64,000 nt of DNA, from assembly GCF_050320075.1 (NCBI RefSeq), contig NZ_CP190018.1. The stretch is one strand, 5' to 3'. The stretch comes from Escherichia coli (lineage in GTDB: Bacteria > Pseudomonadota > Gammaproteobacteria > Enterobacterales > Enterobacteriaceae). Below, one piece after another: positions 50,082 to 56,205 of the stretch; within the stretch, counting starts at the first letter, position 1; each line of letters starts with the position of its first letter. A model generated the notes under the pieces. The model did no database searches. It was not told the DNA's origin and saw only the letters and a list, made by a program, of their open reading frames with translations. The position numbers were made by a program, and so were the translations under genes.

Positions 50082-50894
50082 ATGATCATTACACGAGCAG
50101 ACCTGCGAGAATGGCGTATCGGAGCGGTGATGTATCGCTGGTTCCTGCGCCATTTCCCACGCGGCGGTAGTTATGCCGATATTCATCATGCACTGATTGA
50201 GGAAGGATATACGGACTGGGCGGAGAGTCTGGTTGAGTATGCGTGGAAAAAATGGCTGGCGGATGAAAACTTCGCGCATCAGGAAGTTTCCTCTATGCAA
50301 AAATTGGCCACAGATCCCGGAGAGAGACCATTTTGCAGTCAGTTTGCCCGCAGCGACGATCATGCTCGCATCGGCTGTTGTGAGGATAATGCCAGAATCG
50401 CAACCGCTGGGTATGCCGCGCAAATTGCCAGTATGGGTTATAGCGTGCGGATTGGAAGTGTCGGCTTTAACAGTCACATTGGCAGCTCCGGTGAACGCGC
50501 ACGGGTTGCTGTAACCGGTAATTCTTCGCGGATAAGCAGCGCTGGAGATAGTAGTCGGATTGCGAATACCGGAATGCGAGTACGCGTTTGTACATTGGGT
50601 GAACGGTGTCATGTCGCCAGTAATGGTGACCTGGTGCAAATCGCCAGCTTTGGCGCAAACGCCAGAATTGCCAACAGCGGCGACAATGTACACATCATTG
50701 CCAGCGGTGAAGATTCAACAATAGTGAGCACGGGCGTGGTCGACTCAATTATTCTCGGGCCAGGGGGAAGCGCCGCACTGGCATATCATGACGGCGAAAG
50801 AGTTCGCTTCGCCGTCGCCATTGAAGGTGAAAACAATATTCGAGCCGGAGTCCGCTATCGTCTTAATGAACAGCATCAGTTTGTTGAGTGCTGA
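50082..50894 (+). CDS. ydhT: uncharacterised protein YdhT with about 15 tandem 9-residue repeats
   Basis: 270-aa ORF; residues about 93-228 form repeats of pattern x-x-R-I-A-x-x-G-x. Confidence 0.85.
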   Translation: MIITRADLREWRIGAVMYRWFLRHFPRGGSYADIHHALIEEGYTDWAESLVEYAWKKWLADENFAHQEVSSMQKLATDPGERPFCSQFARSDDHARIGCCEDNARIATAGYAAQIASMGYSVRIGSVGFNSHIGSSGERARVAVTGNSSRISSAGDSSRIANTGMRVRVCTLGERCHVASNGDLVQIASFGANARIANSGDNVHIIASGEDSTIVSTGVVDSIILGPGGSAALAYHDGERVRFAVAIEGENNIRAGVRYRLNEQHQFVEC

Positions 50895-53048: not shown

Positions 53049-53125
53049 TGGTGCGTCCGAGTGGACTCGAACCACCGACCCCCACCATGTCAAGGTGGTG
53101 CTCTAACCAACTGAGCTACGGACGC
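53049..53125 (-). tRNA. valW: tRNA-Val (anticodon GAC)
   Basis: minus-strand GCGTCCGTAGCTCAGTTGGTTAGAGCACCACCTTGACATGGTGGGGGTCGGTGGTTCGAGTCCACTCGGACGCACCA. Confidence 0.95.
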
Positions 53126-53129
53126 AGGA

Positions 53130-53206
53130 TGGTGCGTTCAATTGGACTCGAACCAACGACCCCCACCATGTCAAGGTGGTGCTCTAACCAACTGAGCTAT
53201 GAACGC
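53130..53206 (-). tRNA. valV: tRNA-Val (anticodon GAC)
   Basis: minus-strand GCGTTCATAGCTCAGTTGGTTAGAGCACCACCTTGACATGGTGGGGGTCGTTGGTTCGAGTCCAATTGAACGCACCA. Confidence 0.95.
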
Positions 53207-53232
53207 AACGTTGTAGGTGACAACGGGGACGA

Positions 53233-53261
53233 ATATTAGCGGCAGAGTGGGAAGGTGGCAA
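53233..53261 (-). promoter_or_regulatory. candidate sigma70 promoter of valVW
   Basis: minus-strand TTGCCA-17bp-TAATAT followed by GC-rich discriminator, about 20-30 nt upstream of tRNA 5' end. Confidence 0.45.
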
Positions 53262-53513
53262 GAGGCAAAACGTATTTTTCTGCGGTATTTCGACCGTTTG
53301 CAGAGCTTTTAAGCAAATTGGCTATATTTTGTTGATTTGCAAGGGCGATTTTTATTCAGGATCGCATTTACATCTGACACAACCCAATAATCTGTGTATC
53401 AGAGTTTAAACAGAGTTGTTTGCCACCATCTCAAATCTGTCGTGGATAAATCCTTCGTAGCCTTTACACTTAGGTAGCAATAAAGGCACACAGATGCAGC
53501 AAAGGAATAAATC

Positions 53514-54770
53514 ATGGGATCTGATGCGAAAAACTTGATGAGCGACGGGAACGTGCAAATTGTTAAGACCGGCGAGGTCATTGGCGTGACGCAACTTACT
53601 GAAGGTGAGTTAATTGTTGAAGCTGGCGGAAGAGCCGAAAATACCGTGGTCACGGGGGCTGGCTGGTTGAAAGTGGCAACCGGTGGGATCGCCAAATGCA
53701 CACAGTACGGCAACAATGGCACGCTATCGGTCAGCGACGGTGCCATTGCCACAGATATTGTTCAGTCCGAGGGAGGCGCAATTAGTCTCTCTACGCTCGC
53801 TACGGTTAATGGCCGCCATCCCGAAGGTGAATTCAGCGTTGATAAAGGTTATGCCTGCGGTTTGTTGCTGGAAAATGGCGGTAACCTGCGTGTACTGGAA
53901 GGCCATCGCGCGGAAAAAATTATTCTCGATCAAGAGGGTGGCCTGTTGGTCAATGGGACAACCTCAGCGGTCGTGGTAGATGAAGGTGGTGAATTGTTGG
54001 TGTATCCAGGTGGGGAAGCCAGCAATTGTGAGATTAATCAGGGCGGCGTTTTTATGCTGGCGGGGAAAGCCAGTGATACATTGCTTGCTGGTGGCACCAT
54101 GAATAATCTCGGTGGTGAAGACTCTGACACTATTGTTGAGAATGGATCCACTTATCGTCTGGGGACGGATGGTCTTCAGCTCTACAGTTCCGGTAAGACG
54201 CAAAACCTGTCCGTTAATGTGGGTGGTCGGGCTGAAGTGCATGCCGGTACGCTGGAAAATGCGGTAATACAAGGTGGGACAGTGATCCTGTTGTCACCCA
54301 CCAGCGCGGACGAAAATTTTGTCGTAGAGGAAGATCGCGTACCGGTTGAACTGACCGGTAGTGTTGCATTACTGGACGGCGCTTCAATGATTATTGGCTA
54401 TGGCGCAGATCTGCAACAATCAACGATTACTGTACAGCAGGGCGGTGTGTTGATTCTCGACGGCAGTACGGTAAAAGGTGACAGTGTCACTTTCAGTGTT
54501 GGTAACATCAATCTCAATGGCGGAAAACTGTGGCTGATCACTGATGCGGCAACGCAGGTGCATCTGAAAGTGAAACGCCTGCGTGGAGAGGGAGCCATTT
54601 GCCTGCAAACCAGTGCGAAAGAAATTTCACCTGACTTCATCAATGTGAAAGGGGAAGTTACCGGGGATATACACGTTGAGATAACAGATGCCAGTCGGCA
54701 AACTCTGTGTAACGCACTGAAACTACAGCCAGACGAAGACGGGATTGGCGCAACGCTCCAGCCTGCGTAA
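53514..54770 (+). CDS. ydhQ: autotransporter passenger-like beta-helix repeat protein (no obvious signal peptide or beta-barrel)
   Basis: 418-aa Gly/Val/Asn-rich repeat ORF resembling AIDA-type passenger domains. Confidence 0.85.
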   Translation: MGSDAKNLMSDGNVQIVKTGEVIGVTQLTEGELIVEAGGRAENTVVTGAGWLKVATGGIAKCTQYGNNGTLSVSDGAIATDIVQSEGGAISLSTLATVNGRHPEGEFSVDKGYACGLLLENGGNLRVLEGHRAEKIILDQEGGLLVNGTTSAVVVDEGGELLVYPGGEASNCEINQGGVFMLAGKASDTLLAGGTMNNLGGEDSDTIVENGSTYRLGTDGLQLYSSGKTQNLSVNVGGRAEVHAGTLENAVIQGGTVILLSPTSADENFVVEEDRVPVELTGSVALLDGASMIIGYGADLQQSTITVQQGGVLILDGSTVKGDSVTFSVGNINLNGGKLWLITDAATQVHLKVKRLRGEGAICLQTSAKEISPDFINVKGEVTGDIHVEITDASRQTLCNALKLQPDEDGIGATLQPA

Positions 54771-54776
54771 AAACAC

Positions 54777-54809
54777 AGGCGCAACCCGTGAAGGTTGCGC
54801 CTTGTCTTT
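54777..54809. terminator. terminator between convergent ydhQ and mdtK
   Basis: AGGCGCAACC-CGTGAA-GGTTGCGCCT hairpin followed by TTGTCTTT. Confidence 0.65.
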
Positions 54810-54810
54810 A

Positions 54811-56205
<1,395 letters not shown>

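What the first reader, a model, noticed from the sequence alone, without database searches (positions are those of the whole stretch)
53514..54770. ydhQ: orphan autotransporter-passenger-like beta-helix protein without a translocator
The 418-aa product is built from Gly/Asn/Val-rich repeats typical of AIDA-type passenger domains. I see no obvious N-terminal signal peptide and no C-terminal beta-barrel, and no partner gene nearby. It may be a remnant adhesin or a protein with a repurposed cytoplasmic or periplasmic role.
Basis: partly seen in the sequence, partly recalled or inferred. Interest (0 to 1): 0.3.

Follow-up and report, generated by a model that had tools for sequence, protein, structure and literature searches.

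The report
ydhQ: barrel-less autotransporter-like protein, known
This is the already-annotated E. coli gene ydhQ, whose protein looks like the stalk of a surface adhesin but lacks both the export signal and the membrane pore, is conserved in this short form across the genus Escherichia, and most likely stays inside the cell doing an unknown job.

Summary
ORF 53514-54770 (+) encodes a 418-aa Gly/Leu/Val-rich protein with 4 AIDA repeats and two thirds of a Pertactin/autochaperone domain. It has no signal peptide (in-frame TAA two codons upstream), no linker, no beta-barrel and no translocator gene nearby.

It is E. coli ydhQ. It matches its own NCBIfam equivalog (PRK09945), is present in 5424 of 5426 complete E. 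coli genomes, and its lack of a signal peptide is already in the literature.

What I add:
- The 418-aa form is the ancestral form of the family. E. albertii, E. marmotae, E. ruysiae and others carry it syntenically and without indels.
- It is under purifying selection (dN/dS 0.09-0.13 at dS about 1), so it is not a decaying remnant.
- It lies in a ~1.5-kb Escherichia-specific segment between mdtK and tRNA-Val. Salmonella and Enterobacter have only ~150 bp there.
- No full-length orthologue or second barrel-less family was found among 1.84 billion representative proteins.
- A confident model (pLDDT 89) is an acidic beta-helix closest to Ag43 and TibA.

Published data point to a cytoplasmic location. 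Function remains unknown. The gene is already known and of modest interest.

The parts
53514..54770 (+). ydhQ coding sequence, 418 aa (42.9 kDa, pI 4.42, net charge -27)
   Evidence: ORF list. NCBIfam NF007409/PRK09945 equivalog, 932 bits against a cut-off of 830, covering 1-418 of 418. RefSeq annotation 'ydhQ: AIDA repeat-containing protein'. Charge and pI.
53502..53506 (+). Shine-Dalgarno-like AAGGA, 7 nt before the ATG
   Evidence: Read directly from the sequence. Conserved in E. albertii, E. marmotae, MOD1-EC7003 and the P0018 contig.
53508..53510 (+). In-frame TAA two codons upstream of the start, which excludes a longer N-terminus or a hidden signal peptide
   Evidence: The sequence around it is conserved in the orthologous loci.
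53586..54203 (+). AIDA-repeat beta-helix region (about aa 25-230), homologous to the middle of Ag43 passengers
   Evidence: Pfam AIDA in 4 stretches. NCBIfam Ag43 model positions 249-456 of 948. PDB sequence hits: aa 26-142 aligns to Ag43 7ko9 residues 201-317, and aa 26-212 to 4kh3 residues 202-392.
53769..53933 (+). Most constrained segment (aa 86-140, GGAISLSTLATVNGRHPEGEFSVDKGYACGLLLENGGNLRVLEGHRAEKIILDQ)
   Evidence: Identity to the window sequence, averaged over the window sequence and 8 relatives, is 0.93-0.98 across aa 81-140. Segment dN/dS is 0.02-0.04 between species.
54294..54353 (+). YdhQ-specific conserved acidic loop (aa 261-280, SPTSADENFVVEEDRVPVEL)
   Evidence: It falls in a gap in the Ag43-type relatives in alignment A1. 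16 of its 20 positions are invariant across the window sequence and 8 relatives. Segment omega is about 0.08. pLDDT is below 50 for residues 264-274.
54498..54722 (+). Partial autochaperone/Pertactin-like domain (aa 329-403); the protein ends about 25 residues before that domain's final hairpin
   Evidence: Pfam PF03212 profile positions 1-78 of 121. Alignment A1 against Ag43-like proteins that continue with '...GGFVDLGTYEYVLKSDGNSNWNLT'. Omega is 0.14-0.24.
54777..54802 (.). GC-rich hairpin with T-runs on both strands: a bidirectional terminator shared by the convergent genes ydhQ and mdtK
   Evidence: Terminator scan found it on both strands. Sequence.
53284..54810 (.). Escherichia-specific ~1.5-kb segment in the mdtK to tRNA-Val spacer: ydhQ plus 230 bp of 5' region and 40 bp of 3' region
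   Evidence: In Salmonella (L009) and Enterobacter (L010), mdtK is followed after ~150 bp by the two tRNA-Val genes. Homology to the window runs from the tRNA to ~53283 at 85% identity and resumes only inside mdtK.
53298..53350 (+). Block conserved in all Escherichia loci, including the 71%-identity orthologue. It contains TTGCAG-19 nt-TATATT (53298-53328), a candidate ydhQ promoter (inference only)
   Evidence: Alignment A2 and sequence. The consensus promoter scan did not call it.
53049..53206 (-). Context: two tRNA-Val(GAC) genes (valV, valW) flanking the insert
   Evidence: ARAGORN. Same pair in E. albertii, E. marmotae, Salmonella and Enterobacter.
54811..56184 (-). Context: mdtK (MATE efflux pump), convergent with ydhQ and flanking the insert
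   Evidence: ORF list, annotation, orthologues.

Best explanation
The feature is ydhQ, a known core gene restricted to the genus Escherichia.

Shown here:
- It encodes an acidic, 418-aa, right-handed beta-helix.
- The protein is collinear with the last ~420 passenger residues of Ag43/AIDA-type (type Va) autotransporters, running from mid-helix to two thirds of the way through the autochaperone domain.
- It lacks the signal peptide, the N-terminal part of the passenger, the alpha-helical linker and the beta-barrel.
- It sits in a ~1.5-kb segment between mdtK and the valV/valW tRNA genes that is absent from Salmonella and Enterobacter. It has its own ribosome-binding site and terminator.
- It has kept exactly this length under purifying selection in every Escherichia species sampled here.

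Inferred:
- Without any export signal or translocator it cannot use the type V pathway.
- It is made and folds in the cytoplasm. The retained autochaperone core probably serves as the C-terminal folding nucleus and cap of the helix.
- It acts there as a soluble, non-essential binding scaffold. The likely working surfaces are its most constrained rungs (aa 86-140) and a family-specific conserved acidic loop (aa 261-280).
- Published screens hint at partners in RNA-protein or translation complexes, but the actual ligand and physiological role are unknown.
For: Identity and distribution:
- NCBIfam PRK09945 full-length match above its cut-off.
- Present in 5424 of 5426 complete E. coli genomes.
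- Orthologues occur only in Escherichia and are all 418-419 aa.
- In the exhaustive HMMER search, the only non-fragment family hit was the Escherichia cluster representative. The next hit was a 1534-aa autotransporter at 38% identity.

Architecture:
- Pfam AIDA x4 plus Pertactin positions 1-78 of 121, and no barrel.
- Collinear alignment with Ag43-type proteins, ending inside the autochaperone domain.
- AlphaFold model with pLDDT 89.4 and pTM 0.87, all beta-helix.
- Best structural neighbours are Ag43 (7koh, 7ko9, 7kob, 4kh3) and TibA (4q1q).

No export signal:
- TAA two codons upstream of the start and no hydrophobic N-terminal core.
- SignalP 6.0 negative, and fusions without a signal peptide are fluorescent and cytoplasmic (PMC13101318).

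Selection:
- dN/dS 0.09-0.13 at dS 0.76-1.2, with zero indels among the named species.
- All segments have omega below 0.25.

Origin:
- Synteny in E. albertii and E. marmotae.
- The segment is absent from Salmonella and Enterobacter, and its boundaries are mapped.

Expression and intracellular contacts:
- Quantified in proteomes (PMC6561319).
- Recovered in the UV-crosslink OOPS RNA-interface proteome (bioRxiv 10.1101/2023.07.03.547468).
- Copurified with EF-Tu (PMC2672614).
Against: - No localisation of native YdhQ has been read here. Cytoplasmic residence rests on absence of signals, on overexpressed fusions and on proteome-scale screens.
- A protein with pI 4.4 is an unlikely direct RNA binder, and EF-Tu is a frequent contaminant of pull-downs.
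- Delta-ydhQ is routinely used as a neutral control with no reported effect on phage T7 infection (PMC6962156; GMT preprint), so there is no phenotype to anchor a function.
- Secondary sources cite Roux et al. 2005 for a role in early adhesion (PMC9110714). I could not read that paper.
- PMC13101318 reports apparent surface display when a signal peptide is added.
- YDHQ is listed in a COG cluster from extracellular-vesicle proteomes (PMC10458587).
- dN is about ten times that of the neighbouring genes, and one scan reported positively selected sites. Such a pattern is more usual for exposed proteins.
Confidence: 0.7

Rival explanations
1. YdhQ is still an extracellular adhesin or biofilm factor. 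It leaves the cell by a non-classical route (lysis, vesicles, or piggy-backing on another system). Outside the cell it contributes to early adhesion or modulates aggregation by binding Ag43-type helices.
For: - PMC9110714 cites Roux 2005 in saying that ydhQ is required for early stages of adhesion, and reports positively selected sites.
- YDHQ appears in a COG3468 cluster from vesicle proteomes.
- With an added signal peptide, reporter-YdhQ fusions gave more external activity than fusions without an anchor (PMC13101318).
- dN is about ten times that of neighbouring genes, as is often seen for exposed proteins.
Against: - There is no signal peptide, barrel, linker or partner gene.
- Without a signal peptide the fusion stays in the cytoplasm.
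- A text search of the display paper found no mention of proteinase K or trypsin, and the paper does not address the absent barrel. Periplasmic leakage could explain its result.
- Vesicle proteomes commonly contain cytoplasmic proteins.
- YdhQ aligns to Ag43 from about passenger residue 200 onward. From memory of Heras et al. 2014, not tested here, the Ag43 self-association interface lies mostly in the region N-terminal to that.
Confidence: 0.13
2. ydhQ is a non-functional relic: a gene fragment left over from a degraded autotransporter or island, transcribed and translated by accident.
For: - The architecture is that of an internal fragment cut at both ends.
- The location is next to tRNA genes in a slot where other genera carry islands.
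- The deletion has no known phenotype.
- Rare alleles carry in-frame deletions of whole rungs.
Against: - dN/dS is 0.09-0.13 with dS about 1 and no indel, frameshift or stop in 418 codons across species.
- Omega is below 0.25 in every segment.
- The start codon, Shine-Dalgarno sequence and an upstream block are conserved.
- The gene is present in 5424 of 5426 E. coli genomes.
- The protein is detected in proteomes.
Confidence: 0.04
3. The gene model is wrong or incomplete. Either a signal peptide is encoded upstream, or YdhQ is one half of a split autotransporter whose barrel is encoded elsewhere.
For: E. coli K-12 carries several disrupted or split autotransporter genes (my own knowledge, not tested here).
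Against: - An in-frame TAA lies two codons upstream of the start.
- All three upstream reading frames are full of stops and show no ESPR-like peptide.
- The 230-bp 5' region is AT-rich, unlike AIDA-coding DNA.
- Only 40 bp, mostly terminator, lie downstream.
- No barrel gene lies within about 7 kb on either side.
- Without a signal peptide a separate barrel could not help.
Confidence: 0.02

Closest known systems
Antigen 43 (Flu/Cah) and the self-associating autotransporters AIDA-I and TibA (type Va secretion)
   Same: - The same AIDA strand-loop-strand repeats form a right-handed beta-helix, followed by a Pertactin-type autochaperone region.
- They are the best sequence and structure matches (4kh3, 7ko9, 7koh, 7kob, 4q1q).
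- Alignment is collinear over about 420 residues, at 34% identity to the Ag43-like P0041.
   Different: - YdhQ has no signal peptide, lacks the first ~200 passenger residues, lacks the end of the autochaperone domain, and has no linker or beta-barrel.
- It scores 89 bits against the Ag43 equivalog, whose cut-off is 1200.
- It carries a conserved acidic loop that the relatives lack.
- It is probably cytoplasmic.
YdhQ family itself (NCBIfam NF007409 / PRK09945; UniProt P77552; RefSeq 'AIDA repeat-containing protein')
   Same: Full-length match above the curated cut-off. It is 96% identical to the main E. coli/Shigella cluster of 8778 sequences.
   Different: Nothing. The window's gene is an ordinary allele, 100% identical at DNA level to E. 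coli strain 746.
P0026, a 1534-aa Ag43/AIDA-like autotransporter (ESPR signal, 11 AIDA repeats, AC_1/Pertactin): the best non-orthologous hit
   Same: Shares the repeat unit containing the YdhQ core motif (…VxGxHxxxxxFSVxxGxAxxLLLENGGxLxVLxGHxA…) several times over.
   Different: It is a full-size secreted protein. Local identity is only 29-38%, the similarity arises from 8 repeated stretches, and it is not syntenic.
Frameshifted autotransporter fragments (P0061 of 422 aa, P0102 of 503 aa)
   Same: Similar size and the same Pfam picture: AIDA repeats plus a truncated Pertactin match.
   Different: They end in nonsense tails, occur on single contigs, and are not conserved. They are accidents, whereas YdhQ is a maintained family.

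Membership tests
Classical (type Va) autotransporter | N-terminal Sec signal peptide (often with an ESPR extension) | tested here: not met
   No hydrophobic core (maximum KD over 12 residues is 1.1). An in-frame TAA at 53508 blocks any extension, and there is no ESPR hit. SignalP 6.0 is negative in PMC13101318.
Classical (type Va) autotransporter | Beta-helical passenger domain | tested here: met
   AIDA x4. AlphaFold beta-helix with pLDDT 89. Foldseek finds Ag43 and TibA at E 1e-10 to 1e-7.
Classical (type Va) autotransporter | Complete autochaperone (Pertactin/AC) domain at the end of the passenger | tested here: inconclusive
   Only profile positions 1-78 of 121 of PF03212 are matched, and there is no AC_1 hit. 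The protein ends about 25 residues before the domain's last hairpin.
Classical (type Va) autotransporter | Alpha-helical linker plus C-terminal 12-stranded beta-barrel (PF03797 / TIGR01414) | tested here: not met
   No hit at E<=1. The model has no helix or barrel. Only 40 bp lie between the stop codon and mdtK.
Ag43/Cah family (NCBIfam NF033177 equivalog) | Full-length score at or above the curated cut-off of 1200 bits | tested here: not met
   88.8 bits, matching only aa 25-230 to profile positions 249-456 of 948.
YdhQ family (NCBIfam NF007409 / PRK09945 equivalog) | Full-length score at or above the curated cut-off of 830 bits | tested here: met
   932.4 bits, covering 1-418 of 418.
YdhQ family (NCBIfam NF007409 / PRK09945 equivalog) | Conserved genomic position between valV/valW and mdtK | tested here: met
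   Same order in E. coli strain 746, E. albertii and E. marmotae, and the same upstream flank in the P0018 contig.
Two-partner secretion exoprotein (type Vb, TpsA) | N-terminal TPS domain and an adjacent TpsB (Omp85-type) transporter gene | tested here: not met
   No such Pfam hit in YdhQ, and no Omp85-type gene among the annotated neighbours.
Anti-phage defence protein (PADLOC models) | Match to any PADLOC-DB model | tested here: not met
   0 families at E<=0.01.

The most novel reading that the evidence does not exclude
An adhesin stalk has been exapted for an intracellular job. On this reading YdhQ is a cytoplasmic, strongly acidic beta-solenoid that binds a component of the translation or RNA-protein machinery, or acts as a nucleic-acid-like decoy in the way pentapeptide-repeat beta-helices mimic DNA. 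It would do so through its invariant rungs (aa 86-140) and conserved acidic loop (aa 261-280). That would make it the first autotransporter-passenger fold with a dedicated cytoplasmic function.
Probability: 0.2. Interest if true: 0.6.

Novelty: already known. Interest (0 to 1): 0.25.

Why it matters
As it stands, this is a correct re-description of an annotated y-gene. Its oddities, homology to Ag43 and no predicted signal peptide, are already in databases and papers.

The residual value is threefold:
- It removes the 'pseudogene' reading. The short form is old, fixed and selectively maintained across Escherichia, so the protein does something.
- It cautions against treating YdhQ as a 'leaderless autotransporter' display anchor, since no translocator domain exists.
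- It offers a clean, dispensable test case of whether an autotransporter beta-helix can fold and function in the cytoplasm. That bears on the long-running debate about how passenger folding and secretion are coupled.

Tried and rejected
- Species distribution. The genome-contig scan with YdhQ used exact peptide patterns and returned a single locus, so it was useless for this purpose. I used orthologue look-ups and MdtK-anchored contexts instead.
- A second barrel-less family. P0061 (422 aa) and P0102 (503 aa) have the same Pfam picture, but I rejected them. Both end in frameshift nonsense and are single-contig observations.
- Remnants of a signal peptide or passenger upstream. All three frames of 53207-53516 are broken by stops, and I saw no ESPR-like peptide on reading the three translations.
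- Barrel remnants downstream. There is no room: 40 bp, mostly terminator.
- Sequence-level repeats. Self-BLAST and TRF found nothing; the repeats are structural only.
- Defence or phage origin. PADLOC gave nothing. PHROGs hit only two families of unknown function, one a 947-position profile matching the AIDA-repeat half.
- The primary adhesion paper (Roux, Beloin & Ghigo 2005, PMID 15659678) is not held. Its result for ydhQ is known to me only through secondary citation.
- E. fergusonii was not examined, and the organism behind the 71%-identity orthologue P0018 was not identified.
Full report
**1. Observation**

Composition is Gly 15.1%, Leu 10.5%, Val 9.6%, Thr 8.1%, Ala 7.7% and Asn 5.5%.

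Pfam finds four AIDA (PF16168) stretches (E 7e-29). It also finds a Pertactin (PF03212) match covering only profile positions 1-78 of 121, at aa 329-403.

NCBIfam has a dedicated equivalog, NF007409/PRK09945, named only 'hypothetical protein'. The protein matches it end to end at 932 bits, above the cut-off of 830. The Ag43 equivalog is hit at only 89 bits against a cut-off of 1200, over aa 25-230.

The repeats are degenerate structural ones. Self-BLAST and Tandem Repeats Finder report nothing.

**2. Missing parts**

No signal peptide:
- The N-terminus (MGSDAKNLMSDGNVQIVKTG…) has no hydrophobic core.
- An in-frame TAA at 53508 lies two codons before the ATG.
- A Shine-Dalgarno-like AAGGA sits at 53502-53506.
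- The three upstream frames are full of stops.

No barrel or linker:
- No PF03797 or TIGR01414 hit appears even at E<=1.
- The stop codon is followed after 6 nt by a GC-rich hairpin (54777-54802) with T-runs on both strands. That hairpin is a bidirectional terminator shared with convergent mdtK, whose coding region ends at 54811.

Neighbouring genes are ydhV/W/X, phsC, ydhT, ydhS, ydhR, two tRNA-Val(GAC) genes, mdtK, ribE, cfa, punC and punR. None is an outer-membrane translocator.

**3. Identity and what is already known**

The 3.7-kb stretch around the gene is present in 5424 of 5426 complete E. coli genomes, where the gene is annotated 'ydhQ: AIDA repeat-containing protein'. The literature already treats YdhQ as an Ag43 homologue.

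- A 2026 paper (PMC13101318) reports that SignalP 6.0 predicts no signal peptide and that reporter-YdhQ fusions without a signal peptide are fluorescent and cytoplasmic. It calls YdhQ a 'leaderless autotransporter' that displays cargo when given a foreign signal peptide. A text search of that paper found no mention of proteinase K or trypsin. It never addresses the absence of a barrel.
- Delta-ydhQ is used as a neutral control strain and integration site (PMC6962156; GMT preprint).
- The protein has been quantified in a proteome (PMC6561319) and copurified with EF-Tu (PMC2672614).
- It is listed among 17 unannotated proteins recovered at the UV-crosslink-dependent RNA interface by OOPS (bioRxiv 10.1101/2023.07.03.547468).
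- A positive-selection scan flags ydhQ and cites Roux et al. 2005 for a role in early adhesion (PMC9110714). I could not obtain the Roux paper.

**4. Is it a truncation?**

Close relatives are confined to Escherichia: E. coli/Shigella, E. ruysiae, E. marmotae, E. albertii, sp. E4742 and MOD1-EC7003. A 71%-identical protein from an unidentified sample also belongs here. All are 418 aa, or 419 in that one case.

I searched 1.84 billion representative proteins exhaustively with HMMER. The only non-fragment family hit was the Escherichia cluster representative. The next hit is a 1534-aa Ag43/AIDA-like autotransporter at 38% identity over 8 repeated stretches, followed by giant AIDA-repeat proteins at about 30%.

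Two short proteins with the same Pfam picture (P0061, P0102) turned out to be frameshifted fragments with nonsense tails.

The gene is syntenic in E. albertii and E. marmotae, in the order ydhR, tRNA-Val x2, ydhQ, mdtK, ribE, cfa. The divergent orthologue's contig shares the same upstream flank.

So the 418-aa form is the ancestral state of this family.

**5. Selection**

I computed Nei-Gojobori estimates between E. coli, E. albertii, E. marmotae and MOD1-EC7003.

| Gene | dN | dS | dN/dS |
|---|---|---|---|
| ydhQ (between the named species) | ~0.10 | 0.76-1.2 | 0.09-0.13 |
| ydhQ (E. coli vs MOD1-EC7003, a shallow comparison) | 0.03 | 0.23 | 0.125 |
| mdtK, ribE, cfa | 0.006-0.026 | 0.58-0.80 | 0.01-0.03 |
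| ydhR | 0.04-0.05 | 0.51-0.67 | 0.07-0.09 |

ydhQ has no indel in 418 codons. It therefore evolves fast for a core gene but under clear purifying selection.

Every segment is constrained:
- aa 86-140 most strongly, with omega 0.02-0.04 between species (0.105 in the shallow E. coli vs MOD1-EC7003 comparison)
- the partial autochaperone region least, with omega 0.14-0.24.

Rare E. coli alleles carry in-frame deletions of 16-48 residues that keep the frame and the C-terminus. These are consistent with loss of whole rungs. All are singletons, against 8778 sequences in the 418-aa cluster.

**6. Origin**

In Salmonella and Enterobacter, mdtK is followed after ~150 bp by the two tRNA-Val genes. Beyond these lie SPI-2-type type III secretion genes in Salmonella, and HSP20, GlgS, YdcA and T6SS genes in Enterobacter.

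In the window, homology to those spacers extends from the tRNA to about 53283 at 85% identity and resumes only within mdtK. The Escherichia-specific segment is therefore about 53284-54810. It comprises ydhQ, 230 bp of AT-rich 5' region and the terminator.

Inside the 5' region, a block at 53298-53350 is nearly invariant in all Escherichia loci. It contains TTGCAG-19 nt-TATATT, which I propose, as inference only, to be the ydhQ promoter. An in vitro FlhDC SELEX peak maps just beside it (PMC9962212).

**7. Structure and homology**

Alignment with Ag43-type proteins is collinear, from mid-passenger to within the autochaperone domain. YdhQ stops about 25 residues before the final 'G-Y-x-Y-x-L…W-x-L' hairpin that precedes the linker and barrel.

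The AlphaFold2 model is confident (mean pLDDT 89.4, pTM 0.87). It is beta-helix throughout, with low confidence only at residues 1-7 and 264-274.

By sequence, the nearest solved proteins are Ag43 variants and TibA. Foldseek gives the same answer at E 1e-10 to 1e-7.

The low-confidence loop belongs to a segment (aa 261-280, SPTSADENFVVEEDRVPVEL) that is absent from the Ag43-type relatives yet highly conserved among orthologues.

The protein is strongly acidic, with pI 4.42 and net charge -27.

**8. Interpretation**

Shown:
- It is a known, expressed, genus-restricted and selectively maintained protein.
- It has an autotransporter-passenger fold and none of the three elements needed for type V secretion.

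Inferred:
- It folds and stays in the cytoplasm.
- The retained autochaperone core probably serves as the folding nucleus or cap.
- It acts as a non-essential binding scaffold through its invariant rungs and acidic loop.
- Links to EF-Tu and RNA come from proteome-scale screens and are weak, given the protein's acidity.

Rivals:
- An extracellular adhesin role by a non-classical route is not excluded (about 0.13).
- A relic (about 0.04) is contradicted by the selection data.
- A mis-modelled or split gene (about 0.02) is contradicted by the sequence data.

**9. Verdict**

The gene and its peculiar architecture are already known. Function is still open, so interest is modest (0.25).

The most novel reading still allowed is a true intracellular exaptation of an adhesin beta-helix (probability about 0.2).

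Noticed in passing
L009 7523-13371 (Salmonella); L010 7528-13374 (Enterobacter); window 53049-53206: The region beside the valV/valW tRNA-Val pair varies by lineage. Salmonella carries SPI-2-type T3SS genes (SsaP/SsaO/SepQ and export apparatus) beyond the tRNAs. Enterobacter carries HSP20, GlgS, YdcA and a T6SS cluster. Escherichia has ydhR/ydhS on that side, and ydhQ inserted on the other (promoter) side of the tRNAs.
   Followed up: partly
window 50082-50894 (+), ydhT: The 270-aa YdhT translation, about 2.6 kb upstream of ydhQ, shows its own run of short degenerate repeats (…ARIATAGYAAQIASMGYSVRIGSVGFNSHIGSSGERARVAVTGNSSRISSAGDSSRIANTG…). This suggests another small solenoid-like protein of unknown function. 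Pfam knows only a YdhT_N family.
   Followed up: no
window 53298-53350: A block in the ydhQ 5' region is almost invariant in every Escherichia locus, including the 71%-identity orthologue, whereas the 150 bp after it are much more variable. It contains TTGCAG-19 nt-TATATT. Possible readings are a ydhQ promoter or operator, or upstream elements of the divergent tRNA promoter (TTGCCA-17-TAATAT at 53261-53233, - strand). A published FlhDC SELEX peak maps to about 53256-53297.
   Followed up: partly
ydhQ aa 98-145, 166-215 and 283-323 (window about 53805-54482): Single E. coli records carry in-frame deletions of 16-48 residues (proteins of 370-402 aa) that preserve the frame and C-terminus. These look like loss of whole beta-helix rungs. 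All are singletons and could be real rare alleles or assembly collapses.
   Followed up: partly
L004 1-1636 (Logan SRR31578456): A 419-aa orthologue only 71% identical to E. coli YdhQ (dS saturated), with the same tRNA-proximal flank. It comes from an unidentified organism, possibly a deep Escherichia lineage, and would help date the insertion.
   Followed up: partly
literature: PMC13101318: This paper treats YdhQ as a 'leaderless autotransporter' anchor and reports surface display once a signal peptide is added. Yet the protein has no linker or barrel, and a text search found no proteinase K or trypsin mention. Either the result reflects periplasmic leakage, or there is an unexplained barrel-independent route.
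   Followed up: partly
hit H7 (NZ_CP128926.1, strain TUM9812), ydhR region: In this strain the match is split by an IS3-family transposase, and ydhR is annotated as two 'YdhR family protein' pieces. This is an IS insertion next to the tRNA-Val pair.
   Followed up: no
window 53514-54770 compared with neighbouring genes: ydhQ has higher dS than its neighbours in the same genome pairs (for example 1.10 against 0.62-0.80 for E. coli vs E. albertii) and lower GC3 than mdtK (0.49 against 0.58). This suggests weaker codon bias or a different recombination history.
   Followed up: no
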